Assembly: GCA_937934305.1 (NCBI GenBank)
Contig: CALHAG010000002.1
Location: forward strand, 142,192-206,191
Direction of reading: 5' to 3'
From: Candidatus Caldarchaeum subterraneum
Lineage (GTDB): Archaea; Thermoproteota; Nitrososphaeria_A; Caldarchaeales; Caldarchaeaceae
Length of the DNA: 64,000 nt
In this document: positions 1-62,021 of the stretch, in pieces
Position numbering within the stretch: the stretch's first letter is position 1
Layout of the letters: the number at the start of each line of letters is the position of its first letter
Made by a program: the position numbers and the translations under genes
The notes under the pieces: generated by a model
Databases searched by the model: none
What the model was told of the DNA's origin: nothing
What the model saw: only the letters and a program-made list of their open reading frames with translations

Positions 1-1091
1 GCGCCTTCTAGGCCTGTCACCTGTCTGCCCAGCTCCGCTAAAGAGTATGCAAGCCCTCCAATCATGGGGGTGTCTAAGAACTCTGCGTTTGGTATCTGTC
101 TATAGGTGAGGAGCACCACTATGGGTCCTGTGACCGGCCCTGCGCCGAGGCAGTTGTCTGAGACCGGTAACCCATAGGAGTCGGATGTCTTGAGAAAATG
201 CCTGTCCAGCTTTGTTCTGCATGTCAGCGTCAGGGTTGAGCCCGCGGCCACCCATGTCTGGTAGGCGCCTTTTACGAGGATTTCTTGACCGTTTATGGTC
301 ACAGGCGCCTCAGCGCCCTCGGCGATTACGGTGAGCCTGTATTCCGTGGCGTAGTTGACCTTGGCTAGGCTGAGCAACTGCTTGGGTATGGGCTTATCCA
401 TTGGGAAGGTTTTATCGGCCACGGTGTATGACTGAGGTATTTTTCTCTCGTTGTCGCTTACCCTGACCGGCTCAGCATTTATTGTTGTGAATTGGTCAAG
501 CGGGTAATATTCGTCGAGGAACTTCACGTACGTGTAGTAGTAGGCGGTTAAGTTGACGGAGCCTGGCGGTAGCTTGATGGTTATCTCTGGCTGGGAGTAT
601 ATGTTTCCGAGAGCCTCCGCATAGAGATAGATGTATTTGTTCTCGCCCAATATTATCTCGGGTGGGAAAACATAGCTTATGGTTTCGCCCACCCTCGCTA
701 CCAGGGGACCGGGGCGGAGCTCTTTCGGCAGAGATATGTTGAGGACGGGGTTGACGACGGCTCTCTCTATCACCTCTCCGCCCGGTCCTGTGTAGAGCCT
801 CTCGAAGACTGCTTTAGCCTCAAAGTCTCCGTCGATGTAGAAGAAGAACGGGTTGGCGGAGGTGTAGTTGAACGGCATGCCTTTGCTGATTACCCATCCC
901 ATGAACCTGCAGTTGGTCGTCGGCCTAGCCTCTATCCTCACCTGCGCGCCGGCGGGGTATCTGCCTGCGCCGGCTATGGAGAGGATGCAGTCTGACGGCT
1001 CCCCTGTCAATGTAACGCTGTAGCTCTCCTGCGCGTAGACGGGGAACATCAATAGAAACATCAATATCGTGAACAACAGGACCTGCTTCAT
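1..1091 (-). CDS. Secreted hypothetical protein, partial; the N-terminus is in the window and the C-terminus runs off the left edge
   Basis: ATG at 1089-1091 on the minus strand, immediately downstream of the platform gene. I translated MKQVLLFTILMFLLMFPVYAQESYSVTLTG..., which has a signal-peptide-like N-terminus. I checked positions 1-300 in this frame by hand and found no stop. It is not in the ORF track because it is truncated at the edge. Confidence 0.45.
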   Translation of the reverse strand, partial: MKQVLLFTILMFLLMFPVYAQESYSVTLTGEPSDCILSIAGAGRYPAGAQVRIEARPTTNCRFMGWVISKGMPFNYTSANPFFFYIDGDFEAKAVFERLYTGPGGEVIERAVVNPVLNISLPKELRPGPLVARVGETISYVFPPEIILGENKYIYLYAEALGNIYSQPEITIKLPPGSVNLTAYYYTYVKFLDEYYPLDQFTTINAEPVRVSDNERKIPQSYTVADKTFPMDKPIPKQLLSLAKVNYATEYRLTVIAEGAEAPVTINGQEILVKGAYQTWVAAGSTLTLTCRTKLDRHFLKTSDSYGLPVSDNCLGAGPVTGPIVVLLTYRQIPNAEFLDTPMIGGLAYSLAELGRQVTGLEG

Positions 1092-33288: not shown

Positions 33289-34536
33289 CTATTTTTCGTC
33301 AAGGTAGTCTACAGGCAGGGCGAATCCTGAGCCTGTTTCGATGTCTAGGTATATTTTTTCTCCGCTCCATTTTCTGGGCTCGGTCCCGATGTGGATTATC
33401 GCTCTTCTGTCCCCTAGTCTGATGCTTTTTTTTCTGAGTAAGAGCAGGTGGTTAGGCCCCTCGCCCCAGACTTTTCGAAGCATTTTTGCGAAGAAAGAGT
33501 ACGACCTTGCGGCTAGAATGGTTGGGAAAAGGTCTTGGGGCGGGAGGATTCTTCTATATCTCGGCCTCTCCCCCTCATACCATAGCCAGAGATAGAGGCC
33601 TTCACCGCATAGTTTGGCGGCTTTTATCAGCAGTGGATAGTATTCTCCGGCCAGCTCCTCCAGAGCCTGAAACGCTTCTTCACTCTCTATTCTGTAGAGG
33701 TTTTCGCCAACTTTTGTGCCGTAGGTCTGTATCTTGACTATTGCTGCTCTGCCTCTGCTGTCGGGGACGACTCCATCACGCTCTCTATATATGCTGAGCA
33801 CTTCGCCGAAACGCTGGTCATACGGGGTAATGTATCCCAGATGCATATGCGTGGCTGGAGTCTTCGCACCTGAGCTGAAGTACACGCCTAGTGTTCCCGG
33901 CAGAAGCAGCGGGGACAGCATCTGGATAGGGTATCCTGTCCTCCTGTAGACAGAGGCCGCGTAGCCGTTCACGAGGCCCGCAAGCCTCAGATAATCGCCG
34001 TGAGATATTTTCCGGAACTTCTCAGCCATCTTCTCGGGGATACCGAGATAAGCCACATCTAATCTATCCGGTTTCTCGAGGTTAACATAATCTGTGAACC
34101 TGCCGCCTTCCTCCGCGTCGTCGAGCCTGATAAAAACACTATGATAGGGGCTTACAGTGTTTACCCAATGAGACATCTTGACATGTATCTGCCCCTCTAT
34201 GCGGTAGAGGAGAGGCGTTGGATTATTCATCCAATAGACTGGGTCAGGCGCGTTAACCACCTCGCCTGAGGCTTTCATGAACCTGATAAAGTCCTCGCCT
34301 TTGACGGGGAGTTGGCTCTCCTCCTCACCAAGGTCTTCGAAAAACTTGGCCACCAGAGCGTCCTCAAACCCCTGGTCGATAAGAGACTCGATGAACTTCA
34401 CGGTCTGCGCCAGAGCTGCAAGGTTCATGGCATGATACTGTGCACCGGGATATCCTTGTCTAAGAGTCTCCTCATACCATCCCAGCTCTTTTTGATGCAT
34501 TCGGAGTAATCTAGAGAGCTTAACCACAATAGCCAA
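33289..34536 (-). CDS. Hypothetical cytoplasmic protein (415 aa)
   Basis: Long ORF with no motif I can recognise. Confidence 0.35.
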   Translation of the reverse strand: MAIVVKLSRLLRMHQKELGWYEETLRQGYPGAQYHAMNLAALAQTVKFIESLIDQGFEDALVAKFFEDLGEEESQLPVKGEDFIRFMKASGEVVNAPDPVYWMNNPTPLLYRIEGQIHVKMSHWVNTVSPYHSVFIRLDDAEEGGRFTDYVNLEKPDRLDVAYLGIPEKMAEKFRKISHGDYLRLAGLVNGYAASVYRRTGYPIQMLSPLLLPGTLGVYFSSGAKTPATHMHLGYITPYDQRFGEVLSIYRERDGVVPDSRGRAAIVKIQTYGTKVGENLYRIESEEAFQALEELAGEYYPLLIKAAKLCGEGLYLWLWYEGERPRYRRILPPQDLFPTILAARSYSFFAKMLRKVWGEGPNHLLLLRKKSIRLGDRRAIIHIGTEPRKWSGEKIYLDIETGSGFALPVDYLDEK

Positions 34537-39007: not shown

Positions 39008-40138
39008 TCATTCTTCCTCTGGTTTCCAAATGTCCTTGTTCGGGAAACCGCATTCCAAACATGCTACAGGAGCCCCGTGCGCCAACCCTCTCAGAACAGA
39101 GGAGCAGCTTGGGCATAGAAGCACCCGAACATTGTCAAGCGGCGGGTTGAGGTTTACGACTGGATAATAGGAGGGGAAGGGTGAGGTGTCCGCGGATATT
39201 AGCTTCATGAAGGCTCTCGGGTTTCTCGGGATGCTCAGGATTGCTTCAGGGCGTTTGAGCACTTCATGCAGATACGGTCCCTGCTTCACGGCTTTGAAGA
39301 GGTGCGGCCGCCAATCCAGCATCTTTACAGCTTCTTCGGGGCTCGGCAGCGGCTCACGCCGCTCCTCCACAGGCTGAGAACCGGTGTCTTGTTTCTTGTC
39401 TTCAGGCTTTGCTTTTAGACGCTTCACCGCTTGGAAAAACTTCGTGGCAGTTGTTTTCTTGACTCCGTTGACGAGGTGTTTTTCCTTAGACCGCCTATCC
39501 ACCACATGTATGCCCTCTTCTTCAAGCAGCTTTCTGGCGTCGAATCTCTCGACCATTGAGCGAACAGTTTCGAAAGGCAGGTTAAGCGATTCTGCCACTT
39601 TTCTCCATGAGCCGAGGAATTTATGGAGAGCGACTAGGCCTTCATAGAACTCCTCCTCGCTTAGAGGCAGTGTCTTGCCTTCGTCGCTTAATGCCCAGAG
39701 AAGGGCCTCCTTATCGCTTAAATCGAAAACATAGCAAGGTATCTCCTGTATCCCTGCTATGCGTGCGGCTTCGACACGGCGGGACCCTCTGACCACTCCA
39801 TATGTCCCATCTGGAAGCGGCCTGACGGCCACTGCTGAGACGAAGCCATGTTTAACTATGTCTTCCACCAACGGTTTCAGGTCACCAAGATTCTCTCTCG
39901 GGTTCATTGGGTCTTTCACTAGCTTGCTCAACGGCAGGGTTACGAGCTTAGGCTCGATTACCTGACCCATCATATTATTGCTCTTCGGAGGTATATTAAA
40001 GGAGTCTGGGCCATTTTCGGTCATCTCTCTCTCACCACCTCCAGTACACGGGCAGCCGTGGATTGACCAATTATTTTCGCCAAATGTTCGGTGGATATCC
40101 GGCGGAGGTCTTCCACCCTCCTGATACCAGCGTTCCAT
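39008..40138 (-). CDS. ParB-like nuclease-domain protein with a C-terminal zinc ribbon
   Basis: VRPLPDGTYGVVRGSRRVEAARIAG matches the ParB/Srx GxRRxxAA box. C-terminal CPSCSSVL...CLECGFPN. The likely true start is the ATG at 40024, which would give an ATGA overlap with the hel308 stop. Confidence 0.55.
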   Translation of the reverse strand: MERWYQEGGRPPPDIHRTFGENNWSIHGCPCTGGGEREMTENGPDSFNIPPKSNNMMGQVIEPKLVTLPLSKLVKDPMNPRENLGDLKPLVEDIVKHGFVSAVAVRPLPDGTYGVVRGSRRVEAARIAGIQEIPCYVFDLSDKEALLWALSDEGKTLPLSEEEFYEGLVALHKFLGSWRKVAESLNLPFETVRSMVERFDARKLLEEEGIHVVDRRSKEKHLVNGVKKTTATKFFQAVKRLKAKPEDKKQDTGSQPVEERREPLPSPEEAVKMLDWRPHLFKAVKQGPYLHEVLKRPEAILSIPRNPRAFMKLISADTSPFPSYYPVVNLNPPLDNVRVLLCPSCSSVLRGLAHGAPVACLECGFPNKDIWKPEEE

Positions 40139-47387: not shown

Positions 47388-47901
47388 CTCTTCTCAAGAC
47401 ATACACCATGCTGCTGACCATTGCGCTGAAGCTGGTCACGGCGACGAAGGTCCACAGCCTGCTCTCCACGTTGAAAACCCGCTCCACAACGTCTCCATGG
47501 CTGGTCTCCATCCTCACTATGAACGTGGCCCTCGGGTAGGAGAATATGCGCCAAGAGGTTTCAGCGACACCTGATTCATCTGTGGAAACCTCTATAGATT
47601 CTCTAAACTCGGCATACTGTATCCTCAGCCTAGTGTTCGCAACGGGTCTGCAGACCGATGCATCCATTATTGTTGTCCCGTTGTCGAGAACCTTCCAGCA
47701 CCTCCCCCCGCTTCCAACCAGGTCTTCCACAACCAGTATCCGGAAAGTATATGGCCATAGGAAGTGAGCCTCCTGGGTTCTGTCGAAGAAGATTACGACC
47801 TTGGTGGGGTTGAAGCCGTCGGTGTTTTCATCGCCTATAGCCAGTGGCGCGGCCAGAGCCAGCAGCGCCAGAGACAATAGAAGAAGGTTAAGCGGTTTCA
47901 T
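47377..47901 (-). CDS. Secreted hypothetical protein
   Basis: Signal MKPLNLLLLSLALLALAAPLAIG. 174 aa. Embedded between the two ATPase genes. Confidence 0.35.
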   Translation of the reverse strand: MKPLNLLLLSLALLALAAPLAIGDENTDGFNPTKVVIFFDRTQEAHFLWPYTFRILVVEDLVGSGGRCWKVLDNGTTIMDASVCRPVANTRLRIQYAEFRESIEVSTDESGVAETSWRIFSYPRATFIVRMETSHGDVVERVFNVESRLWTFVAVTSFSAMVSSMVYVLRRGVW

Positions 47902-50683
47902 ACAGCATCTCCCTCCTGCTCATCCTCCTGCTCACCAGGGCCCTCTTGTCAGGCTCTATGCGGAAGAACAGCGGCCTGGGGTCGACGCTCCACTTGAGGA
48001 AGGCCTCGCCTGTCCCGAAGCCCTCCAGCCTCCTCCTCTCCTCGTCTGTCAGGTTAAGCAGCCTCTGGGCGTTCAGGGCCTCGCCCGGGTTACCGTAGCC
48101 GAAGGCAATCGTTGTGGAAACGAGTGCCGCCACGGTCGGGACACCTCTTCTCTTAGCCATGTCAGCCTCCTGAAGCAGGTCGTCGAGCAGATGCGTTATC
48201 ATGACGTAGCTGGTGCCGAACTTTCTCTCCTCCCTGAGGTGGGTACCGAGAGGGACTTCGCCGGCTTTTCCCAGCAAGAACTTGTGGCCCTCGTCGATTA
48301 TCACCATAAGCCTCACACCCTCCTTAACCTCTTGGCTGAGCATGTAATCATGTATGTGCTCGAGAATGCTCCAAGTGATTAGCCTCTGCATGTCGTCGCT
48401 CATACGCACCTGCCCGCCGCCAGACTGGGCGCGGAAACTCACTATCACGACACCTCCCTCCACCAGCAAATCCTTCAACATCACATCGGTCCTATCAAGC
48501 GCGAAAGCGCCCTCCGCATAGGGCCTCAGCCTCCTCTCTAGGTCAAGCAGCAGCGTTACGGCTGCGTCGAGCTCAGGCGAGCCTCCCCGCGAGATAACCA
48601 GCTTCTCAGCCTCTCTTCTCCTCCACGCAACATATGCATAGAGCTGGGCCATAGTACATTTAGACAGGTTCTCATCCCTCCATGTGGAGGGGTCTGAGTC
48701 ATCAACTCCGCCTATCCTCTTGTACATCAGCTTAAGCCCTTGGTAGAGTATGCTGGATTGGGTGGGCTGAAGCGGTATAGCATTGGGCAAAACCGCGTCC
48801 ACGAATCTGCTTATCCTCTGCTCGGGCGCTAGGCCTGAGAGAAGCAACGGGTTGTATTTCTTGTTGCAGAGGTCTACGACGGTGACCTTCAAGCCCATGG
48901 AGCGGAGCTCGTCAGCCTCGGCGGCGTATTCTCCGGCCGGGTCTATTATGATGACGGCGGGAGGCTTCCCCGTGCCAGAGTATTTGCTGAGGCCATCTAT
49001 CCTGAAGAGCAGCGTCTTTATCAGGGTGGACTTGCCGGTGCCGGGCGAGCCTAGCACAAGCATATGCGGGTTATGCAGCATCGACGGGTTCCAGTACACA
49101 GGCCTGCCATACTCGTCTCTGCCGAGGTATACGCCGTCCTTGGGCATTATTGGCCGGCGTCTGAAAGCCAGCGGGCTGACGGCCACGAAGTCCCTCGTCA
49201 ACGCTTTGACAACCGGTATCGGGTTGGGGTCGAAGACGGCTCTACGCGGCTGAGGAAGGTACATGAACCTGTGGCACAGCGCCGCTCCCCAGCCGTCTCC
49301 AACCACCTTTGTCGTGAAATTCATTGTGTCGAGGAGGCTGCGGGCCTCGTGAAGCTCCTTATCCAGCTTATCCAACTCTCTCCAGGAAACGTCTCCCGAG
49401 GCTCTAGCCCTAACCTCTACAACAAGGCTCATCAGGTAGGGCCTCTCCCCATGAGTTATTCTATCCGCCACATTCATGCTGCGGCCCGCTTTCAAGTAGC
49501 CGGACACGGCGCCGCCGACCTGAGCATCCATGCCGTACAGGTCAGCCCTTGCCATGGCGAGCTTGATTGTGTCGCCCACGGGCTGGGGAACTATGTGGAG
49601 AACAACCCTGAAGTCTTTGAGGGTGTAGATGAGGTTGTTGAAAGATGCGAGATACATGGCCAGCCTCCGCTCAATGTCTTCGGATGACAGGTCTCTGTTG
49701 TTGTTTCCAGTGACGGATAGATACTTCGATGCAATGGTCTCGCCATTGACGCGTCTAACCAATACGCCGTCCTCAAGGATGGAGTATTCCCCGCCTCCAA
49801 GGCTCCAGTGGGTATGTCTACCGGACAGCTTGCAGGTGGCTTTGGATACGCTGTTCGCCGCCCTGACGGTTAGTAGGAGGCCGATTATCCCGCTGATGAG
49901 GATTGTTGTCCCCAGTATTCCCAGCCCCGTGCTGAGCATTGATGTAAACAATGTCGCAAACGATGCGCTGCCGAGGATTATCACATGGTGCTTGGAGGGC
50001 TTGTAGGCGGCCTCGTCGCTGACGGCTATTTGATGACCCATGTATGACGCGTCGTCTATCACAACCGTTCCAATGCCTTCCATGCTTGTTGCAAGCGTTT
50101 TAGCAGCGGCCTCGACAGCGTGTACAGCGCCCTCCTCATCGCCCTCAACCACCTCGGAGTAGAGAACTATGTACGCGTATTCTCCTTGAGGCGACCTATC
50201 GATGATAAGCTTCGCCTCAACGTCGGCGAGGCCCTCTACAGCCTTCACCATTCTATCTAGTAGAAGCATCCTCTCATGCGCCGTCGTTGTTTCATAGTTT
50301 TTCTGCACGTCGGCTATCTTCAGCATCTTGACGGCGTAGCCTCTGCGCCTCCTCCTATCCTCGAAGAGCAGGGTTACTTCGCCGGGTTTTCTGGGGCCCT
50401 CGAAGAGCCTTATCTTGGTGGGCACACGCAGAGAATATGGGATATCAGGTGCGACGGCGAACCAGAAAGCCGTGGATGGAACGTTTTTCCTAAGGTATCC
50501 GACGGCGGCTGGATAGCTTCTCCTAGCGGCCAGCAGGGCTAGAAACACCGCCGGAAACAGGATAGCCATGTAGGGGGTATACGGAGCCAGTTGAGGGCTT
50601 AAGCCTATTATAGCTAATGTAACCAGTATAAGCCCGCCGAAGAAAAGCGGCCCGATGCCCAGAACCTTAGCAAGAACCCCCAT
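47888..50683 (-). CDS. VirB4/TrbE/CedB-like conjugation-type ATPase with N-terminal TM helices
   Basis: Walker A HMLVLGSPGTGKSTLIKTLL in the C-terminal half. Walker B is RLMVIIDEGHKFL. N-terminal hydrophobic helices. 931 aa. Confidence 0.65.
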   Translation of the reverse strand: MGVLAKVLGIGPLFFGGLILVTLAIIGLSPQLAPYTPYMAILFPAVFLALLAARRSYPAAVGYLRKNVPSTAFWFAVAPDIPYSLRVPTKIRLFEGPRKPGEVTLLFEDRRRRRGYAVKMLKIADVQKNYETTTAHERMLLLDRMVKAVEGLADVEAKLIIDRSPQGEYAYIVLYSEVVEGDEEGAVHAVEAAAKTLATSMEGIGTVVIDDASYMGHQIAVSDEAAYKPSKHHVIILGSASFATLFTSMLSTGLGILGTTILISGIIGLLLTVRAANSVSKATCKLSGRHTHWSLGGGEYSILEDGVLVRRVNGETIASKYLSVTGNNNRDLSSEDIERRLAMYLASFNNLIYTLKDFRVVLHIVPQPVGDTIKLAMARADLYGMDAQVGGAVSGYLKAGRSMNVADRITHGERPYLMSLVVEVRARASGDVSWRELDKLDKELHEARSLLDTMNFTTKVVGDGWGAALCHRFMYLPQPRRAVFDPNPIPVVKALTRDFVAVSPLAFRRRPIMPKDGVYLGRDEYGRPVYWNPSMLHNPHMLVLGSPGTGKSTLIKTLLFRIDGLSKYSGTGKPPAVIIIDPAGEYAAEADELRSMGLKVTVVDLCNKKYNPLLLSGLAPEQRISRFVDAVLPNAIPLQPTQSSILYQGLKLMYKRIGGVDDSDPSTWRDENLSKCTMAQLYAYVAWRRREAEKLVISRGGSPELDAAVTLLLDLERRLRPYAEGAFALDRTDVMLKDLLVEGGVVIVSFRAQSGGGQVRMSDDMQRLITWSILEHIHDYMLSQEVKEGVRLMVIIDEGHKFLLGKAGEVPLGTHLREERKFGTSYVMITHLLDDLLQEADMAKRRGVPTVAALVSTTIAFGYGNPGEALNAQRLLNLTDEERRRLEGFGTGEAFLKWSVDPRPLFFRIEPDKRALVSRRMSRREMLYETA

Positions 50684-55848: not shown

Positions 55849-56373
55849 TCAACTTGGCACGTCCCAGGGACCGCCTATAGGTATAGACGAGCCCTGCCCT
55901 GACGCTGCCACAGCCACGTCGGCTGCGAATTTTATGATGTAGAGGCCCAGCGCGGTCAGCCCGCCGACTATCAGCGCGCTGTCAATCAGTTGTCCGGCGC
56001 CCTCCTTGGTCCTGTGAGACCCTAGAGGCAGGAACTTTATCGCTATCCCCGCGCCCAGCAGAGCCATCGCAATCAGCAGGAGAAGCTGCTGAAACCCTTG
56101 CAACGGCTCCCTAATCAAGTTTGCAACCCCTCCCGCGCCCGCTGCGTGAACCGTCTGAGACGCCAGAGCCGTCGCCGCCAGTTGCACAGCCGTCAATGCC
56201 GCAGGCCTGAGCCGTGCCAACACCTTTCCCATTCTCCAAGCCTTGTGGGTTTTCATGGTCGCTTCGAGACCGTCTCCGAACATGATAATAGATAAACTTT
56301 TGGTGGCAAACCTGAACGAGAACTGAACGAAAGTTGAACGTAAGTTGAACGAGGAGAAACTATTTTCGGTCAA
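55849..56373 (-). CDS. VirB2/TrbC/CedA1-like pilin candidate; the probable true start is the ATG at 56256
   Basis: From the internal Met: MKTHKAWRMGKVLARLRPAALTAVQLAATALA (signal-like), then two hydrophobic helices separated by a short charged loop (GSHRTKEGAG). The annotated N-terminal 39 aa read through the promoter/repeat region. Confidence 0.4.
   Translation of the reverse strand: MTENSFSSFNLRSTFVQFSFRFATKSLSIIMFGDGLEATMKTHKAWRMGKVLARLRPAALTAVQLAATALASQTVHAAGAGGVANLIREPLQGFQQLLLLIAMALLGAGIAIKFLPLGSHRTKEGAGQLIDSALIVGGLTALGLYIIKFAADVAVAASGQGSSIPIGGPWDVPS
56282..56300 (-). promoter_or_regulatory. Candidate TATA-like promoter for the 15-gene minus-strand array
   Basis: The minus strand reads AAAAGTTTATCTATTATCATG ~27-45 nt upstream of the ATG at 56256. 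It lies immediately next to the TGAACG array. Confidence 0.3.
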
Positions 56374-56481
56374 GGTATCTGTGAAGTGGCTGAATTTTGG
56401 CGAATTAGGCTGACCATAATTACTCGGCCGTCGTTCAATTCTCGTTCAGTTTACGTTCAACTTTGCCACCAAAAATTTATA
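56295..56481. repeat. ~55-bp inverted repeat (arms 56295-56354 and 56428-56481) carrying TGAACG boxes at exact 11-bp phasing
   Basis: Left arm TTTTGGTGGCAAACCTGAACGAGAACTGAACGAAAGTTGAACGTAAGTTGAACG has TGAACG at 56313, 56324, 56335 and 56346. Right arm CGTTCAATTCTCGTTCAGTTTACGTTCAACTTTGCCACCAAAAA has CGTTCA at 56432, 56443 and 56454. A third direct copy of the right arm is at 56880-56934. Confidence 0.7.
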
Positions 56482-56635
56482 TAGGGTTCTTCATGATGTC
56501 AACTAGGCTATTTAAAGGTAAATGGTTAATGCCATGTAAAAAATCGGCTTATTTCGCCATAACTCGCCAATCCAGAAGAAATGGTGGAAGAGACGGAAAA
56601 AGCCCAGTTTTAGTGGATTGACGTAATGCAAGCTC

Positions 56636-56760
56636 GTTTTTGACAATATTTGGTCAACCCCCATCCGTGGAGAGGCGAAATTTCCGGGAATTAGGGCGGA
56701 TTATATGTTGACCGAAATTAGTCAGAGTTTGGTATTACGCCCCGTTTCTAGAGCCTAGAG
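56636..56760. repeat. Copy of the composite palindrome-containing repeat unit (degenerate palindrome TTGACAATATTTGGTCAA)
   Basis: TTGACAATATTTGGTCAACCCCCATCCGTGGAGAGGCGAAATTTCCGGGAATTAGGGCGGATTATATGTTGACCGAAATTAGTCAGAG. Confidence 0.6.
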
Positions 56761-56879
56761 AGGATGAGTTTCGGGTCTTTAAGTCTACGGATTCCGCAAA
56801 ACAGACAAATATTAAGACATTTGACGAAAAAATGGATATGATGAGTGATGGTTTTAGACGGTGACCGAAATTACTCAGC

Positions 56880-56934
56880 CGTCGTTCAAATCACGTTCAA
56901 TTCTCGTTCAAGTTTGCCACCAAAAATTTATAAG
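56880..56934. repeat. Direct repeat of the right arm (CGTTCA x3 at 11-bp phasing + TTTGCCACCAAAAATTTATA)
   Basis: ~90% identical to 56428-56481. CGTTCA at 56882, 56893 and 56904. Confidence 0.65.
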
Positions 56935-56989
56935 CCATCAGTTTTGAGACAGTCCCAGACCAAGCCCTTAACCGAGGGGTTTGGTCCCA

Positions 56990-57410
56990 TAAACCCTACG
57001 TGAAATACCGATGAGGCCCTGTTGCGGCAGGGCTGAGCTGGAGAGGCGCATGCGGAGCGTCCCGTGACGGGGTTCGTCAGATACCTCGTCACCCGAGGGC
57101 TGGGAGCCGGCATGCCTGGCCCAAGGCCCCGGACACTCACGTAGGGTGTGCCGAAGCCGGCGATGCATAGGTGCTGCGGACGCTTGGTAGAGGGGCACCC
57201 CCGCCACCGAAGCGACCAACGGACCCACAAGGCTTGGAGGTGGATGCAGGGATGCCCCATAGGGAGGAGAATAAGCCTCCTTATAGGGCTTCCCACCCTC
57301 TCCAACGCCTACGAGAAGAGCTACCGGTGACTATAAGGGGTACTAACGGGACTGGTGACATGCGGTGTCCGGTGACCTATGTAGGTCTCCGAAGTGACTA
57401 AGGGGCAGGC
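56990..57410. ncRNA. GC-rich hairpin-dense non-coding segment (candidate structured RNA of unknown class)
   Basis: No coherent ORF; the tracks show only Arg/Pro-rich spurious frames. There are many local hairpins (GCCCTGttgcggCAGGGC, CCCGtgaCGGG, GGCATGCC). A 10-bp perfect inverted repeat CCCTACGTGA (56993) / TCACGTAGGG (57141) closes a ~140-nt domain. I compared it to RNase P and SRP RNA motifs and the resemblance was partial and inconsistent. Confidence 0.25.
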
Positions 57411-57490
57411 TTAGGGGTTGGATAGATTATCCAAGAGGGCTCTAAGGAGACGGCTGAGGTGTTGGATAGATTATCCAAGGGGGTTGGATG
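57408..57490. repeat. Three copies of the palindrome TTGGATAGATTATCCAA spaced 44 and 22 bp apart (iteron/operator-like)
   Basis: Copies at 57408-57424, 57452-57468 and 57474-57490 (the third is TTGGATGGATTATCCAA). Each is flanked by G-runs. The spacings are multiples of 11 bp. Confidence 0.7.
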
Positions 57491-57916
57491 GATTATCCAA
57501 GGGGCTGGCTACGACAACTTGGGGGTGGCTAAGGGGTTGGTAACAAGAATTGTTCTAACCCATTAGAACCCTCTACCATGCGTGTAATGGGCTTCCGCGC
57601 CCGGGCTGACCATGCGCCCAAAAGGCCTCCGAAAAGGGAAATCCCCGGAACCGCAGCAGGGGAGAAGAGGCCGAAGACATGGCAACAGACCCGGGACAAG
57701 GGGGAGAACGGTTGGCTGACTCTCCCCGCCATCCCGGAGCCCACTCCCGGGAAACTCTTCCCGGCAACGCCCGTTCACGCGGGCGGGGGGCTCAACAACA
57801 CATGCCCCCCGAAGATGCCAGAAGAAAGGCCGGGATGGGCTCCGGCCATCGACGACAGGCGGGGGGAGAACTCCCCGGTGGCCCGCCGGGGAGGAGGTGA
57901 AAAGAATGAAGAGGAG

Positions 57917-58165
57917 TTGTTAGCACTCATAAACGGTGGCGCCATTGGGTCACAAATTGCTTCTGCTATACGCGAGATTGTGATGCTGGTGTTCGAAATC
58001 TTGACGCCGATTGTCAACATCCTAGGTGTCGCCATGATTGCGATAGGACTGTTGATTGCATTGGGATTGAGACAAGAGTTTTTGGGGTTCCGCTTGGTAA
58101 TTGGTGGAGCCTTAGCACTGGCCACAGTCCACTTGATTGTACCGCTACTGCTTACATACATCTGA
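57917..58165 (+). CDS. Small two-helix membrane protein (VirB2/CedA1-like pilin-like); uncertain start (TTG 57917 or ATG 57983)
   Basis: ...MLVFEILTPIVNILGVAMIAIGLLIALGLRQEFLGFRLVIGGALALATVHLIVPLLLTYI has two hydrophobic helices around a short charged loop. A GGAGGAGGTGA Shine-Dalgarno-like run sits upstream of the TTG. The long annotated N-terminus (57578 onward) is low-complexity and probably not translated. Confidence 0.3.
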   Translation: MLALINGGAIGSQIASAIREIVMLVFEILTPIVNILGVAMIAIGLLIALGLRQEFLGFRLVIGGALALATVHLIVPLLLTYI

Positions 58166-58599
58166 CGACTTCGATTGACCAACCCAACCCCCCTCCTTTT
58201 TTTCCATGGAGGCTTTCTCCCCCCTCTCTCTTTTCCTCTTTCCCCGCCCGCGAGGGCGGAGCCTCTTTGACTCCCCGAGTCCGGGAGGCGCCGCCCTTGT
58301 GGGGGAGAGGGGCGGAAGCCTCCCGGCGGGAGGGGATGGCGAGCGAGTTCCAACGCATCTGGGGGAACGAGACTAACTATATCCGCGCCCAGAGACGTCA
58401 CCGCCGCGGTGAACGCGGCGATGGGGAGTGGATGGAGTTAGTCTCGTTCCTACTAAACCAGCTTTTCTGAGTTTCTGAGCTGGCTGCTCAACGCCAGCCA
58501 GCCAAACACCCCTAATTTTTTTCCCTTGTCAAATAACTTCTACGCCTGAAACATGGCGTCCACCCCGTTTAATGATTGTGGGGTGGCGGGGGTGGTTGG

Positions 58600-58870
58600 C
58601 TGGCTCGCGCCTGGCTCCATGCGCATGTGCTGGAGCTGCGTAGTCCTTGCGCATGTGCGGGTCTATGCATCCTGCGCCCTATACACCGGCCATCCCCGCA
58701 GGGTCTTGCGCATGTGCAGGCCCTGTGATGAGCTCGCGCATGAGCGGCTCCGGTGTATGGGGGGCCTGCTCGCGTATGTGCGGCGGGCGCGGCCACTTGC
58801 GCATGTGCAGTGGCTGCCGCAGGCAGGCGCTTGAGGCGGGTGACAGGTGTGTCTCCTGCGCCATGTGTCT
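58600..58870. repeat. Cluster of seven GCGCATGTGC-like 10-mers arranged as three doublets (27-28 bp within a doublet)
   Basis: Copies at 58621, 58649, 58708, 58736 (GCGCATGAGC), 58772 (GCGTATGTGC) and 58799, plus a weaker one at 58858. All three forward frames and several reverse frames are open, which is typical of a GC-rich non-coding repeat. Confidence 0.55.
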
Positions 58871-59596
58871 GCCGGACTTGCCCGTGAGCGGTCCGCATAC
58901 ATGTGGGGAGCCTTCCTGCCCGTGCGCGGTTGGCTCCAGCGGGAGACACCCAAGCAGACGACATACAGACGATGTTCAGAGGTTGTTCAGATGCTCCGCC
59001 AGAGGAGTTCAGGAGCCATCTTATCCGTGGGAGAGGCATGGTGTCTCTTCCATGGGTTTACTCTATCAGGGCGCCATGGAGGCGTTTTGATGGAGAGGCT
59101 CCTAGCCCTGTTGGCGGAGACAGGTGAACAATGGTTTACTGATGTTTCGAGGATTGACACTGGTTCTATGGATTAAGCAACCGATTCAATAACACCTTGG
59201 AGATACAGGGGTTCATGGTATTCTGATGAGCATCAGATGATATGTGGCTGAAAAGGTCCGATGATTCTAGATATCTACGATGGTCTCAACAGGTCTCTAA
59301 TAAACGCCGACAAAAACAGGTCAAGAAACATCGACGACACTTAGCACCTCCCTCGGCGGGCCATACCTCGGGAACAGGGGCTGGGAGGATGCGGAGACTC
59401 TCCCGGGCCGCATAGGCCCGCCTCCCCACAAAAACACGGGGAGGTGAAAAAGAAATGAGGTCTGTATCCTCCTTCCCCTGGATCCCGGGGGTAAGGTCGC
59501 CCACTGGGCATTTGACCAGGGACCGCCTGCGGCCTGTGTTCCCGAGGGCCGTGGGCGGACTCTGCCCATCGGGGAGAGGAAGAGAGGTGTAGAGCG

Positions 59597-59787: not shown

Positions 59788-61216
59788 ATGTGGGCTAGAG
59801 TTTTTGTGACACTGATAATCATCTTTGGCTTCATGGCTTACGCCTATGTTGCCGCGCTGAATGCTGCCACCCAACTATACAACAGAGGTATACTGAAGAC
59901 CCCACCACCTGCTTTAATCAACGTTGCGGATTTGACATGGGGGTCTATCATGGTGGTTTCAGCGATAGTCGTCATCACGCTAATCATCTCATTAGCGATG
60001 GCTATCTCTAGGTCACGGCGGTTGCTCGGAATAATCCCCGTCAACGATTTCCGAAGACACCTGCTGCTACTCGGACCCACTGGGTCCGGGAAAACAAACG
60101 CAGCCAAGAAGGCTATATCGCTGGCTATCCGCAGAGGTGTCAAGGTCATCGTCATCGACTGGAAAGCCCTCTCCTCCCCGCCAATATTTTTACATCTCTC
60201 ACGGGACGTCTGTAGAGTCGCATGGTGGAGCTGGGAGGGCCCAGAGAGGTGAATACGTTAACTTCGTCAAGGGAGCCACCGTTATCCGGAAGGTGAATCC
60301 GTGGGACAACGGAGGCTACACAGCGCGTCAGAGAGCTGTAATCGCTGTCGAAATGCTACGAGAAATCACCAGAGACATCGCTGACGTTTCTTCAGCATCT
60401 TCCGCAGTTCTCCTCCGAGAATTAATCAAGCTCTACGGAAAGGGGGTTCCGAAGAGCTCCGATGTCGTCAACAGGCTCGAGGAATTTTTCAGGACGGCGA
60501 TGATGGAGAGGCGTCTCGCAGAGGCTAACATGGCAGCGGCTTTGCTGCGGAGGCTGCAGTGGCTTGTCATCGATGAACAAAGAACAACAAAAAACGTCAT
60601 GGGTTCTGACGCCATTGTTATCTATGACCTATCAGAAATCCACAGCGTTTACTTGAAAACGTTATATGCGTTGACAGTGTTTCACAAAAACTACTACGAA
60701 GCTATGAGAGAGGGGTTGACAAACAGGCTGACGACTCTTCTGGTGGCCGAGGAATGCCAGAACTATGTCCACCCTCGACGTTTCGATGAACCACCCTCTC
60801 TTGGTGAGAGGGTGGTCAACGAGCTCAGAGGTTATGGCGTAGGAGTTCTGATGATATCGCCCGACCCGCTACAGATACCGATTCATTTACCACGTGATGT
60901 TGGCGCTGTGGCTTGCTTCGGAGCGCAGGCAGTTCCCGACTTCATCAGAGACATGCTGAGGGTGCTTCCACGTCAGCCAAAGATGGGAGAAGCCATCGTC
61001 TACCACAACGGCAGAATCAAGACAGCTAGGCCTCCGAAGAGGCCTCCTAAGACAATAGACCTGAAGACTGAGACAAAGGAGGTGATTGAAGAGGCTAAGC
61101 CTGAGGAGGCTGTCGAAACTCCTGCTACAATTCAACAACCTCAGGCGGAGGATGCTCAGACAAACCCGATAGAGCAGGAAGAGCCTTTGGAGGAGGCCCA
61201 GAGAGGCTCGAAATAG
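59788..61216 (+). pseudogene. Frameshifted membrane-anchored VirD4/TraG/HerA-like P-loop ATPase (two overlapping ORFs, 59788-60252 and 60137-61216)
   Basis: ORF 1 has two N-terminal TM helices plus Walker A LLLLGPTGSGKTNAAKK and then VKVIVIDWKA. ORF 2 (+1 frame) continues with a Walker B-like TLLVAEECQNYVHP. The frames overlap at 60137-60252 and there is a TATTTTT run at ~60190-60198. Confidence 0.5.
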
Positions 61217-61469: not shown

Positions 61470-62021
61470 GTGGAGGAAGAGGGGGCCCTACGATGCGTCA
61501 GATGTCATGCCTCGGTATCTCTGACCGAGGCGCCGACATTGGCGGAGATGCGATGTAGTAACGATGACAGCAAGAACAATGAGGTGTTGAAGTGTCAAGC
61601 CTGCAGAAGGCCGGCCACTCAAAAGCTTCCGCTAATTAACTTCAAGGGGGAGTTCGAGGACTTCAATGCATGCGATGCCTGCTCTAATGACTACCTTAGA
61701 CTGTTACGTCAGGGGCCTTCCCTTGGTCATGGCAAGGGAAGACTACCGCCAGACAGCTACTACTTCGACTCTCTCCGAACCGTTTTCCAGAGGCTTGGCG
61801 GGGTTTTCCCATGTCCTGCTTGCGATGAATTCTTCGACGACTTGCACTCTGTGGTCAAACATTTCTATGATAAACACCACGACAAACCACGGTCATTAGA
61901 GATGGACATTGATGGGGTGCCGGTCCTGAGGACATGGCAGTACATCTGGTGCAAGAGGTGTTTGAAGTGGTTCGAGAACGAACGTCACTTCCGCTCCCAC
62001 ATCAGAGAGCACATGGGGTGA
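61470..62021 (+). CDS. C2H2-type zinc-finger protein (plus N-terminal CxxC pairs)
   Basis: CPACDEFFDDLHSVVKHFYDKHH and CKRCLKWFENERHFRSHIREH. N-terminal CVRCH...CQACRRP. Confidence 0.5.
   Translation: MEEEGALRCVRCHASVSLTEAPTLAEMRCSNDDSKNNEVLKCQACRRPATQKLPLINFKGEFEDFNACDACSNDYLRLLRQGPSLGHGKGRLPPDSYYFDSLRTVFQRLGGVFPCPACDEFFDDLHSVVKHFYDKHHDKPRSLEMDIDGVPVLRTWQYIWCKRCLKWFENERHFRSHIREHMG

What the first reader, a model, noticed from the sequence alone, without database searches (positions are those of the whole stretch)
57408..57490. Three palindromic TTGGATAGATTATCCAA sites with 44- and 22-bp spacing
Each site is a 7-bp inverted repeat around a GAT core. The centre-to-centre distances are four and two helical turns. 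All three sit between the structured GC-rich segment and a small pilin-like gene.

This is the hallmark of a dimeric DNA-binding protein bound cooperatively, such as a repressor/operator or Rep iterons of an integrated plasmid.
Basis: seen in the sequence. Interest (0 to 1): 0.5.

Follow-up and report, generated by a model that had tools for sequence, protein, structure and literature searches.

The report
Operator-like palindromes in archaeal ICE leader
Three copies of a 17-bp palindrome in the control region of an integrated conjugative element of a hot-spring archaeon are most likely docking sites for a dimeric DNA-binding regulator, because the same sequence lies on the promoters of vitamin/haem/iron-uptake genes in related archaea.

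Summary
TTGGATAGATTATCCAA lies at 57418-57434 and 57462-57478, and TTGGATGGATTATCCAA at 57484-57500. Spacing is 44 and 22 bp; about 0.1-0.2 matches are expected by chance in the window.

The window carries an integrated conjugative element (ICE) of Ca. Caldarchaeum (Aigarchaeota). The sites lie between its divergent transfer operons. They sit inside a conserved, non-coding, GC-rich leader of about 960 nt. No promoter is nearby: the nearest TATA-like box is about 490 bp upstream.

Related ICEs keep the motif with 3, 2 or 1 copies, and one clade has none.

The same 17-mer recurs in at least 26 Bathyarchaeia/Nitrososphaeria genomes. There it sits between the TATA box and the start codon of ECF S-component, BtuF-like and ChuX genes, which is an operator position.

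Best reading (0.55): the sites are operators for a dimeric transcription factor of that specificity, probably host-encoded. It would gate read-through into the ICE's small membrane-protein gene.

Rivals:
- loading sites for the ICE's own ParB/KorB-like protein;
- RNA hairpins;
- oriT or Rep sites.

No cognate regulator was found in the window.

The parts
57418..57434 (.). Site 1: TTGGATAGATTATCCAA, 7-bp arms around GAT
   Evidence: It is identical in L184 and L233-L238. It is changed to TTGGATGGATTGTCCAA in L231/L232.
57462..57478 (.). Site 2: TTGGATAGATTATCCAA, 44 bp after site 1
   Evidence: In L231/L232 it shows the same change as site 1.
57484..57500 (.). Site 3: TTGGATGGATTATCCAA, 22 bp after site 2. 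This G7 form is identical to the commonest chromosomal operator form in Bathyarchaeia.
   Evidence: The site is absent from L231-L234, which lack the 22-bp unit. A single G7 site, TTGGATGGGTTATCCAA, is kept in L227/L250. For the Bathyarchaeia sites.
57398..57507 (+). Repeat scaffold that carries the sites: two 44-nt units (84% identical) plus one extra 22-nt unit
   Evidence: the repeat finder family D1; Tandem Repeats Finder row 57461-57504.
56950..57916 (+). Conserved non-coding GC-rich leader that holds the sites in its variable middle part. It is a candidate structured RNA.
   Evidence: - Indels that are not multiples of 3 break every ORF.
- It is 100% identical over 56752-57780 in three otherwise diverged elements.
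- Folding z-score is -7.05 on the + strand.
- 53 pairs have changes on both sides, against 12-18 in slid controls.
- There is no Rfam match.
56883..56934 (+). Promoter module P3: CGTTCA repeats with an 11-bp period, then GCCACCAAAAATTTATAAG (BRE/TATA-like). It is the nearest upstream promoter-like sequence, about 490 bp from site 1.
   Evidence: The same module occurs at 56300-56351 (facing the minus-strand operon) and at 56431-56481. It is conserved in L226. L227/L250 have GTTACGTAAC repeats instead. That it acts as a promoter is inferred from the sequence.
57552..57569 (.). A further conserved palindrome, GTTCTAA-N4-TTAGAAC, 52 bp after site 3
   Evidence: It is conserved in L227/L250 with a different spacer.
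57917..58165 (+). Small membrane-protein gene (82 aa, TTG start; relatives use ATG ATG). It is the first gene downstream of the sites.
   Evidence: The alignment of starts. Gene calls of 83-96 aa in relatives. No family match.
58197..58203 (+). T7 run directly after the small gene, an archaeal terminator-like signal
   Evidence: Sequence; also present in L250. That it terminates transcription is inferred.
39008..40024 (-). ParB/Spo0J/KorB-like protein (338 aa). It is the only recognisable sequence-specific HTH DNA-binding candidate in the element.
   Evidence: - Pfam ParB_N, 5e-12.
- PDB sequence match to Spo0J 1vz0, 2e-13.
- In the AlphaFold2 model most of residues 30-170 have pLDDT above 80.
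- Foldseek matches over about 150-160 columns to ParB 6sdk, KorB 8qa9 and Noc 7nfu.

Best explanation
The three 17-bp palindromes are operator-type binding sites on double-stranded DNA for a dimeric, sequence-specific transcription factor. That factor has the same specificity as the one that controls corrinoid/haem/iron-uptake genes in Bathyarchaeia and Nitrososphaeria. It is most likely encoded by the host chromosome, because nothing suitable is seen in the element.

In this ICE the sites lie about 490-570 bp downstream of the P3 promoter and 417 bp upstream of the small membrane-protein gene. They sit in the variable middle of a long transcribed leader. Dimers on sites 2 and 3 (22 bp apart) and site 1 (44 bp away) would lie on roughly one face of the helix and could bind cooperatively. 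Bound protein would then block or slow RNA polymerase reading from P3 into the small gene. It might also loop to the divergent promoters. Expression of this ICE operon would thereby be tied to the host signal that the factor senses.

**Shown:**
- the sites and their non-random clustering;
- their conservation and copy-number variation in related ICEs;
- the identity of the 17-mer with a promoter-overlapping element of a chromosomal transporter regulon.

**Inferred:**
- that a protein binds;
- which protein it is;
- cooperativity;
- the roadblock or looping effect.
For: 1. Three sites fall within 83 bp, where 0.13-0.19 matches are expected in the whole window.

2. The motif is kept across diverged ICE lineages while its surroundings decay.
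   - L227/L250 align to the leader at only about 70-82% identity.
   - They still hold GGGGGTTGGATGGGTTATCCAAGG, with only the central base changed from site 3.
   - Variation is confined to inner positions 7, 9 and 12. The outer TTGGAT/TCCAA arms are invariant. This is the usual pattern for helix-turn-helix dimers.

3. In L231/L232 both sites carry the same two changes, although their flanks stay distinct. That is expected if both sites are read by one factor.

4. The genome scan with the ICE 17-mer returned 120 loci.
   - 27 of them are Bathyarchaeia.
   - 36 of 121 matches are followed by CC, against about 7.5 expected.
   - In 19 loci the site lies within 25 nt of the start of one homologous gene family, the ECF transporter S component (PF12822, 1.5e-10). 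A TATA-like box lies on the other side of the site, and either orientation occurs.
   - In 5-6 more loci it precedes BtuF-like Peripla_BP_2 genes (1e-40).
   - In one Nitrososphaera locus it precedes a ChuX/HutX gene, with two sites 21 bp apart.
   - Both the A7 and G7 forms found in the ICE occur there.
   - A site between the TATA box and a start codon 1-25 nt away lies largely upstream of the transcript, so it acts on DNA.

5. Isolated RNA hairpins of the sites are marginal at the host's likely temperature. Their free energy is about -0.5 to -0.8 kcal/mol at 70 C and 0 at 80 C. The sites are AT-rich islands (29% GC) in flanks of 60-65% GC.

6. Copy number of 0, 1, 2 or 3 in otherwise intact relatives fits a tunable regulatory input. 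It does not fit an essential origin.
Against: - No cognate regulator is identified. Pfam and PHROGs find no wHTH, RHH, Lrp or DtxR-type protein in the window. No homologue of the genes next to the Bathyarchaeia sites is present either.
- In the ICE the sites do not overlap any TATA/TSS-like sequence, unlike every chromosomal example. Roadblock repression inside a leader is not an established archaeal mechanism.
- The conserved CCA flank of the chromosomal sites is replaced by G-runs in the ICE.
- It was not possible to test whether Caldarchaeales hosts have this regulon or its factor.
- All observed substitutions in the sites also keep RNA pairing on the + strand through G-U.
- The sites lie in a region with covariation-supported structure.
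- The 44/22-bp phasing could simply reflect how tandem duplications arise.
Confidence: 0.55

Rival explanations
1. The sites are loading or binding sites (parS / OB-like) for the ICE's own ParB/KorB-like protein. The protein would nucleate on the palindromes. It would then either partition the excised element or, like KorB of plasmid RK2, silence the flanking transfer promoters from a distance.
For: - The element encodes a ParB-family protein with an N-terminal domain plus HTH. KorB (8qa9) is among the best structural matches.
- ParB-like genes are typical of thaumarchaeal ICEs (PMC6563490).
- ICE lineages that have the palindromes and whose contigs reach that far (window, L233, L227) carry ParB_N genes. 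The L239-L243 lineage lacks the palindromes. At the syntenic position it has an unrelated 279-aa protein.
- Action at a distance would explain why the sites are not at a promoter.
- From established knowledge: F-plasmid sopC is built of 43-bp repeats, each holding a 7-bp inverted repeat. That closely resembles the 44-bp units here.
Against: - It does not explain why the same 17-mer lies on chromosomal transporter promoters in Bathyarchaeia, where a ParB role is implausible.
- Known parS/OB/NBS sites are 13-16-bp palindromes without a 3-bp spacer.
- The presence/absence correlation rests on very few lineages.
- L231 and L233 differ in both sites, yet their DNA is identical downstream. Their ParB genes could not be compared.
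Confidence: 0.15
2. The palindromes act as RNA (or single-stranded DNA) stem-loops of the + strand, inside a large structured leader RNA. Sites 2 and 3 pair with each other into a 16-bp hairpin with a GGGGG loop. The stem-loops would serve as structural or protein-binding modules that control stability or translation of the downstream small gene.
For: - The sites lie in a non-coding region downstream of a strong promoter-like module.
- That region folds far better than shuffles, with z = -7.05.
- It shows 53 base pairs with double changes, against 12-18 in slid controls, and many G-U-only variations specific to the + strand.
- At the aligned position of site 1, other clades have different hairpins: CCGGGT-CACT-ACCCGG and CCCCG-N8-CGGGG (helix 20).
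- Every substitution seen in the sites (A7G, A12G) keeps pairing as G-U.
- The hairpin between sites 2 and 3 is predicted even at 80 C.
Against: - Single-site hairpins are unstable at 70-80 C, yet L227/L250 keep just one site.
- The sequence itself is conserved, not just the pairing.
- The identical sequence functions upstream of transcripts in other archaea.
- The structure was derived from the same few sequences used to test it.
- The minus strand also folds well, with z = -6.1.
- Alignment in the variable part is uncertain.
Confidence: 0.13
3. The sites belong to an origin of transfer or replication. They would be recognition hairpins or iterons for a nickase, Rep or initiator of the integrated element.
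For: - They lie between divergent transfer operons, where bacterial oriT regions often lie (established knowledge).
- The 3.3-kb region 56300-59590 is dense in repeats: CGTTCA x3-4 in three inverted modules, GCGCATGTGC x6-8, and CAGACGATGTT x3.
- Assemblies often break here.
Against: - No relaxase or Rep gene was found. Relaxases are also unknown in archaeal ICEs (PMC6563490).
- The flanks are GC-rich rather than an AT-rich unwinding element.
- The sites are missing from the L239-L243 lineage and vary from 1 to 3 copies elsewhere.
- The sequence is shared with chromosomal promoters of another class, so it is not element-specific.
Confidence: 0.05
4. The array is a functionally neutral product of recent tandem duplication and recombination in a hypervariable stretch. 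Its match to the Bathyarchaeia operator would be coincidence.
For: - The region is a recombination mosaic. L233 combines a window-like left part with an L231-like right part, and all 38 differences between L231 and L233 fall within 56701-57650.
- The 22-bp unit is present in some elements and absent in others.
Against: - The motif survives in lineages whose surrounding sequence has diverged by about 30%.
- Identical double changes occur in both L231 sites.
- By a rough estimate (inference), an exact 17/17 match to an independently conserved operator core has a chance probability well below 1%.
Confidence: 0.05

Closest known systems
Arrays of three palindromic operators bound cooperatively by archaeal or phage repressors: Ss-LrpB boxes in Sulfolobus, MDR1 operators in Archaeoglobus, lambda OR1-3 (from established knowledge, not tested here)
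   Same: They use 15-17-bp dyad-symmetric sites with conserved outer arms and an AT-rich centre. Three copies are spaced by whole helical turns. Ss-LrpB's consensus, TTGYAWWWWWTRCAA, even shares the TTG...CAA ends.
   Different: Those arrays overlap or adjoin the regulated promoter and usually the regulator's own gene. Here the nearest promoter-like sequence is about 490 bp upstream, no regulator gene is adjacent, and the copy number is not fixed at three in relatives.
Host iron repressor DtxR acting on the tox operator carried by corynephage beta; LexA boxes on prophages and ICEs (established knowledge)
   Same: A mobile element carries binding sites for a chromosomally encoded, metabolite- or stress-sensing repressor. 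Element genes thereby follow a host signal. The chromosomal regulon that shares this motif is one of iron/haem/corrinoid uptake.
   Different: The factor is unidentified and its family untested. The site position is intragenic or in a leader, not at a promoter. The host is an archaeon and the element is an ICE.
KorB-OB of plasmid RK2, and ParB-parS / SopB-sopC centromeres
   Same: The element encodes a ParB/KorB-like protein with an HTH. Palindromic sites lie between transfer operons and away from promoters. The 44-bp repeat units with 7-bp inverted repeats resemble sopC.
   Different: The motif's length and spacer differ from known parS/OB sites. The same motif occurs on chromosomal transporter promoters. 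No binding data exist.
RbkR operators of archaeal riboflavin regulons (PMC5397151)
   Same: They are palindromic 16-20-bp operators in front of vitamin biosynthesis genes and ECF S-component genes. They were found by comparative genomics and are often present as two adjacent sites.
   Different: The reported consensus sequences (TTAC-N10-GTAA in Thaumarchaeota, and others) do not match TTGGAT-N5-ATCCAA. This is therefore a different, apparently undescribed, regulon.

Membership tests
Transcription-factor operator array (dimeric repressor/activator sites) | Dyad-symmetric site of about 14-20 bp, repeated | tested here: met
   Each site has 7-bp arms around 3 bp. There are three copies. About 0.13-0.19 matches are expected by chance.
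Transcription-factor operator array (dimeric repressor/activator sites) | The sequence is conserved in related genomes, with outer half-site positions more constrained than the centre | tested here: met
   Related ICEs keep 1-3 copies. Only positions 7, 9 and 12 vary.
Transcription-factor operator array (dimeric repressor/activator sites) | The site overlaps or adjoins the core promoter (TATA/TSS) of the regulated gene | tested here: not met
   In the ICE the nearest TATA-like box (56925-56934) is about 490 bp upstream, and the flanks of the sites are G-rich. The feature is met for the same 17-mer in at least 26 chromosomal loci of other archaea.
Transcription-factor operator array (dimeric repressor/activator sites) | A cognate DNA-binding regulator is encoded nearby or identifiable | tested here: not met
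   Pfam on about 60 ORFs of the window and PHROGs on 10 of them found no wHTH, RHH, Lrp or DtxR-type protein. There is one weak lead outside the window. In L029 a wHTH+DUF4443 protein is transcribed divergently from the S-component gene.
Transcription-factor operator array (dimeric repressor/activator sites) | Demonstrated protein binding and cooperativity | not testable with these tools
   This needs EMSA, footprinting or DAP-seq.
Rep iterons of a plasmid origin | Directly repeated, element-specific 17-22-bp units next to a rep gene and an AT-rich unwinding element | tested here: not met
   - The units are palindromic.
- The flanks are 60-65% GC.
- No rep gene is adjacent.
- Copy number is 0-3 among relatives.
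- The same sequence occurs on chromosomal promoters of another archaeal class.
ParB-type centromere / KorB operator (parS, OB) | A ParB-family protein with an HTH is encoded on the same replicon | tested here: met
   The protein at 39008-40024(-) matches Pfam ParB_N. It also matches Spo0J, Noc and KorB by sequence and by fold, including the helical DNA-binding part.
ParB-type centromere / KorB operator (parS, OB) | Sites and the ParB gene co-occur across related elements, and the site resembles known 13-16-bp parS/OB palindromes | tested here: inconclusive
   Co-occurrence is consistent in three lineages with sites and one without. That is too few lineages to decide. The motif is 17 bp with a 3-bp spacer, unlike known parS/OB/NBS sites.
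Structured-RNA stem-loops | Pairing is kept by compensatory changes, and the stems are stable at the organism's temperature | tested here: inconclusive
   - Changes in the sites are wobble-compatible only.
- The position of site 1 aligns with other hairpins in distant clades (helix 20).
- Single hairpins have a free energy of about 0 at 70-80 C, while the duplex of sites 2 and 3 is stable.

The most novel reading that the evidence does not exclude
An archaeal integrative conjugative element has wired one of its transfer-region operons to a host corrinoid/haem/iron-uptake regulator. It did so by planting 1-3 copies of that regulator's operator inside a new, roughly 960-nt, covariation-supported structured leader RNA. 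Conjugation-related expression would then respond to the host's cofactor or metal status through a roadblock or RNA-coupled mechanism not yet described in archaea. The operator and its chromosomal regulon in Bathyarchaeia/Nitrososphaeria also appear to be undescribed.
Probability: 0.3. Interest if true: 0.65.

Novelty: new member of a known kind. Interest (0 to 1): 0.45.

Why it matters
Almost nothing is known about how archaeal conjugative elements are regulated. If these sites are operators for a host nutrient-sensing factor, they give a concrete and testable link between host physiology and an archaeal ICE.

The comparison also revealed a candidate operator, TTGGAT(G/A)GATTATCCAA(CCA). It lies in front of predicted corrinoid/haem/iron-uptake genes in Bathyarchaeia. 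No paper in the searched library contains the sequence.

The surrounding leader of about 960 nt is a candidate new structured RNA. It is associated with this family of Caldarchaeales ICEs.

Tried and rejected
- **Genome-wide scan.** It never returned the source genome, so 'occurs only here in the host genome' could not be tested. Its hits nevertheless gave the Bathyarchaeia lead.
- **Other collections.** The two-site pattern found nothing in viral contigs. The region found nothing in PLSDB plasmids.
- **Rfam.** There was no match at gathering thresholds. At E up to 10 there were only weak matches, all far below their families' gathering scores; the best was SorX at E = 0.0086 on the minus strand at 57822-57900.
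- **ORF 57578-58165 (195 aa).** It was rejected as a gene over its first 113 codons, because L184 carries frame-breaking indels there.
- **Small ORF after promoter module P2 (56493-56621, 42 aa).** It was rejected as a regulator, because it is not conserved in L226.
- **RbkR as the factor.** This was rejected because the published motifs differ.
- **Searches for ThiR and for the exact sequence in papers.** Neither gave anything useful.
- **Genes neighbouring the Bathyarchaeia sites.** They have no homologue in the window.
- **PDB sequence searches.** The two small membrane proteins gave nothing. The C2H2-like 183-aa protein (61470-62021) gave only E above 0.2.
- **Fourth window match at 34218.** It was judged to be chance, because it lies inside a coding region.
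Full report
**1. Observation**

The window holds TTGGATAGATTATCCAA at 57418-57434 and 57462-57478, and TTGGATGGATTATCCAA at 57484-57500. The finding's range (57408-57490) is about 10 bp too far left and cuts the third site.

Sites 1 and 2 have 7-bp arms around GAT. In site 3, G7 faces T11, so only six arm pairs are complementary. Spacing is 44 and 22 bp.

Shuffles of the window give 0.13 matches for the 17-mer with up to 3 mismatches. They give 0.19 for TTGGAT-N5-ATCCAA with up to 1 mismatch. A fourth match at 34218 lies inside an ORF and is probably chance.

The array is built from two 44-nt units (84% identical) plus an extra 22-nt unit.

**2. Context**

Positions from about 36.7 kb to the window end are an integrated conjugative element (ICE). 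Recognised genes are:
- a VirB4/HerA-like ATPase (47888-50683);
- a second HerA-like ATPase;
- Hel308;
- a ParB-like protein;
- KaiC/RecA-like and MCM-AAA proteins;
- a VirD4-like protein split into two ORFs (59788-61216).

Homologues are named Ca. Caldarchaeum, Aigarchaeota or Nitrososphaerota by their sources. ICEs with VirB4, VirD4 and ParB-like genes and no relaxase are known from the sister group (PMC6563490).

The sites lie in a gene-poor control region of about 3.3 kb (56300-59590) between divergent operons.

The region contains three copies of a promoter-like module. Each has CGTTCA repeats with an 11-bp period followed by GCCACCAAAA(A/G)TTTAT. One copy faces the minus-strand operon, whose first gene starts about 30 nt downstream. 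Two copies face right. The module is conserved in L226. L227/L250 and L239/L242 have other repeats in its place.

The third module (TATA-like box at about 56925-56934) is the nearest promoter-like sequence upstream of the palindromes. No TATA-like sequence adjoins the sites themselves.

**3. The surrounding sequence is a conserved non-coding leader**

No reading frame survives comparison. L184, L233 and L227 carry indels that are not multiples of three. The small gene really starts at 57917 (TTG; relatives have ATG ATG there).

Positions 56752-57780 are 100% identical in the window, L184 and L189. Yet L189 is only about 69% identical in the VirD4 region. The likely cause is recombination:
- L233 is a mosaic of window-like and L231-like parts;
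- all 38 differences between L231 and L233 fall in 56701-57650;
- many contigs break here.

More distant elements (L227/L250, L239-L243) keep blocks of the leader.

As RNA, the + strand folds with z = -7.05 and the minus strand with z = -6.1. On nine sequences a consensus structure has 53 pairs changed on both sides, against 12-18 when partners are slid. It also has many G-U-only variations that fit only the + strand. One caveat applies: the structure was derived from the same sequences used to test it.

Rfam has no match at gathering thresholds and only weak sub-threshold matches at E up to 10. A T7 run follows the small gene.

The palindromes occupy the variable middle of this leader.

**4. 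Conservation of the palindromes**

| Loci | Sites |
|---|---|
| Window, L184, L235-L238 | three |
| L233/L234 | two (the 22-bp unit is missing) |
| L231/L232 | two, both changed identically to TTGGATGGATTGTCCAA, while their different flanks are kept |
| L227/L250 (leader only about 70-82% identical) | one, TTGGATGGGTTATCCAA, in a conserved 25-nt patch |
| L239-L243 | none, although they keep the leader |

Only positions 7, 9 and 12 vary. It is an accessory feature with variable copy number.

**5. The same 17-mer is an operator-like element elsewhere**

The genome scan with TTGGATRGATTATCCAA stopped at 120 loci, roughly the number expected by chance. It never reached the source genome.

However, 27 of the 120 loci are Bathyarchaeia. 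Also, 36 of 121 matches are followed by CC, against about 7.5 expected.

- **ECF S-component genes.** In 19 loci the site lies within 25 nt of the start codon of one homologous family, the ECF transporter S component. A DUF4430 gene usually follows it. A TATA-like box lies 0-10 nt on the other side of the site, and both orientations occur.
- **BtuF-like genes.** In five or six further loci the site precedes BtuF-like Peripla_BP_2 genes.
- **ChuX/HutX gene.** In a Nitrososphaera locus it precedes a ChuX/HutX gene, with two sites 21 bp apart.

Both ICE variants (A7 and G7) occur in these loci. Left flanks are not conserved. The right flank is CCA.

A site between the TATA box and the start codon lies largely upstream of the transcript. 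It is therefore read as DNA. This is the classical position of archaeal repressor operators (established knowledge).

The regulon looks like corrinoid/haem/iron uptake. Its factor is unknown. Published RbkR motifs differ (PMC5397151), and no paper in the library contains the sequence. One locus (L029) has a divergently transcribed wHTH+DUF4443 gene.

By my rough estimate (inference), an exact 17/17 match between the ICE sites and an independently conserved operator core is very unlikely to be coincidence.

**6. Weighing DNA against RNA**

For RNA:
- the sites lie in a probable transcript;
- the substitutions are all wobble-compatible;
- other clades have other hairpins where site 1 aligns;
- sites 2 and 3 can pair into a 16-bp hairpin.

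Against RNA:
- single hairpins have a free energy of about -0.5 to -0.8 kcal/mol at 70 C and 0 at 80 C, yet L227/L250 keep one site only;
- the sequence itself is conserved, not merely the pairing;
- the same sequence acts upstream of transcripts elsewhere.

I therefore favour protein recognition of duplex DNA.

**7. Who binds?**

Pfam on about 60 ORFs of the window, plus PHROGs on 10 of them, gave no wHTH, RHH, Lrp or DtxR-type protein. The genes that neighbour the Bathyarchaeia sites have no homologue here.

The only recognisable sequence-specific candidate in the ICE is the ParB/KorB-like protein (39008-40024). It has an N-terminal domain plus an HTH. Its best structural matches are ParB, KorB and Noc.

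ParB_N genes accompany the palindrome-bearing lineages whose contigs reach that far. At the syntenic position, L239-L243 have an unrelated 279-aa protein. That is too few lineages to decide. A ParB role also would not explain the chromosomal promoter sites.

A host factor is therefore my first choice, and the ParB/KorB-like protein my second.

**8. Mechanism proposed**

Dimers of a nutrient-sensing host factor occupy the one to three sites. With 22- and 44-bp spacing they lie on about the same helical face and may bind cooperatively.

Because the sites lie 490-570 bp inside the P3 transcription unit, the bound protein would hinder elongation into the small membrane-protein gene. Alternatively, it could loop to the divergent promoters.

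Only the site anatomy, its conservation and the operator position of the same sequence elsewhere are shown. Binding, the identity of the factor, cooperativity and the regulatory effect are all inferred.

**9. Verdict**

- binding sites for a dimeric protein on an integrated plasmid-like element: yes;
- Rep iterons: unlikely;
- a nearby cognate regulator: not found.

This is a new member of a known kind (an operator array) in an unusual position. It comes with two by-products: a candidate uptake-gene operator in Bathyarchaeia, and a candidate ICE-associated structured leader RNA.

Noticed in passing
window 56950-57916 (+); L227:1-760(-), L250:5410-6310, L239:4075-5140, L242:4105-5180: A non-coding, GC-rich leader of about 960 nt is conserved across diverged Caldarchaeales ICEs. 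It folds with z = -7 and has 53 base pairs with double changes, against 12-18 in slid controls. Strongly conserved blocks include GGGATGCCCC-ATAGGG-[hairpin]-CTTATAGGG and GGTTGGCTGA-CTCTCCCCGCCATCC. There is no Rfam match. It is a candidate new structured RNA.
   Followed up: partly
L006, L011, L017, L018, L023, L028, L029, L031, L036, L037, L039, L040, L043, L055, L077, L079, L082, L083, L086, L094, L102, L110, L112, L114, L115, L119 (site positions): TTGGAT(G/A)GATTATCCAA(CCA) lies between the TATA box and the start codon of three kinds of gene in Bathyarchaeia and Nitrososphaeria: ECF S-component (+DUF4430), BtuF-like Peripla_BP_2 and ChuX/HutX. It looks like the operator of an undescribed corrinoid/haem/iron-uptake regulon. 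In L029, a wHTH+DUF4443 gene (448-1071, minus strand) is transcribed divergently from the S-component gene.
   Followed up: partly
window 56300-56351, 56431-56481, 56883-56934: There are three copies of a promoter-like module. Each has 3-4 CGTTCA repeats with an 11-bp period, followed by GCCACCAAAA(A/G)TTTAT. One copy faces left and two face right. L226 keeps the module. L227/L250 have GTTACGTAAC repeats instead. L239/L242 have AAATTTTCG..GACGAAAATGTGACGAC. These are probably element-specific regulator sites at the ICE's divergent promoters.
   Followed up: partly
window 58620-58900 and 58955-58991: A second repeat-rich, gene-poor stretch holds about 6-8 copies of (T)GCGCATGTGC at irregular spacing and 3.4 copies of CAGACGATGTT. 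The GCGCATGTGC block is not conserved in L233 or L250.
   Followed up: no
window 59788-60252 and 60137-61216; L231-L243: The VirD4/TraG-like coupling protein is split into an N-terminal Walker-A ORF (141-166 aa) and a C-terminal ORF (302-347 aa). This holds in the window and in most close relatives. L250 has an unsplit gene of 475 aa, and a large JGI clade has one of 412 aa. The split therefore seems conserved rather than a sequencing error.
   Followed up: no
window 56752-57780 vs L184, L189/L238, L235-L237; L231 vs L233: A 1-kb block is 100% identical among ICE variants that are otherwise 69-97% identical. There are also clear mosaic recombination patches: all 38 differences between L231 and L233 lie in 56701-57650. 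Many metagenome contigs end in this region.
   Followed up: partly
L233:1-3440 vs L234:1-3522: L233 joins the same control region directly to the second HerA-like ATPase gene. It lacks the block of pilin-like, CedA-like, 1330-aa and VirB4 genes that L234 and the window have. It looks like a deletion derivative without the transfer apparatus.
   Followed up: no
window 59380-59595; L233, L235, L239, L242, L248, L250 (alignment): Another conserved non-coding stretch lies upstream of the small TM/zinc-ribbon gene that precedes VirD4. It includes a CCTCCCC...GGGGAGG hairpin, CCCCTGGATCCCGGGGGTAAGGTCG and CCAGGGACTCCGCGGATGGGCGGGTCCGACCCGTCCGTGGAAAC. The last block has diverged in the window itself.
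   Followed up: no
L124, L127, L128, L138, L145, L148, L149, L151, L158, L160, L165, L170, L183, L192, L195, L203-L205, L212, L216, L217, L220, L225: An unrelated recurrent pair of palindromes appears in about 23 metagenome contigs of 47-65% GC. The pair is of the type TTGGATGATATATCCAA / TTGGATAATACATCCAA, with the two copies 22-23 bp apart. It is probably the operator pair of a widespread bacterial regulator.
   Followed up: no
window 61470-62021 (+): A 183-aa protein has two C2H2-like zinc-finger motifs (CPACDEFF..HSVVKHFYDKHH and CKRCLKWF..HFRSHIREH) downstream of VirD4. It has no significant family or PDB match. It is a possible DNA-binding protein of the ICE.
   Followed up: partly
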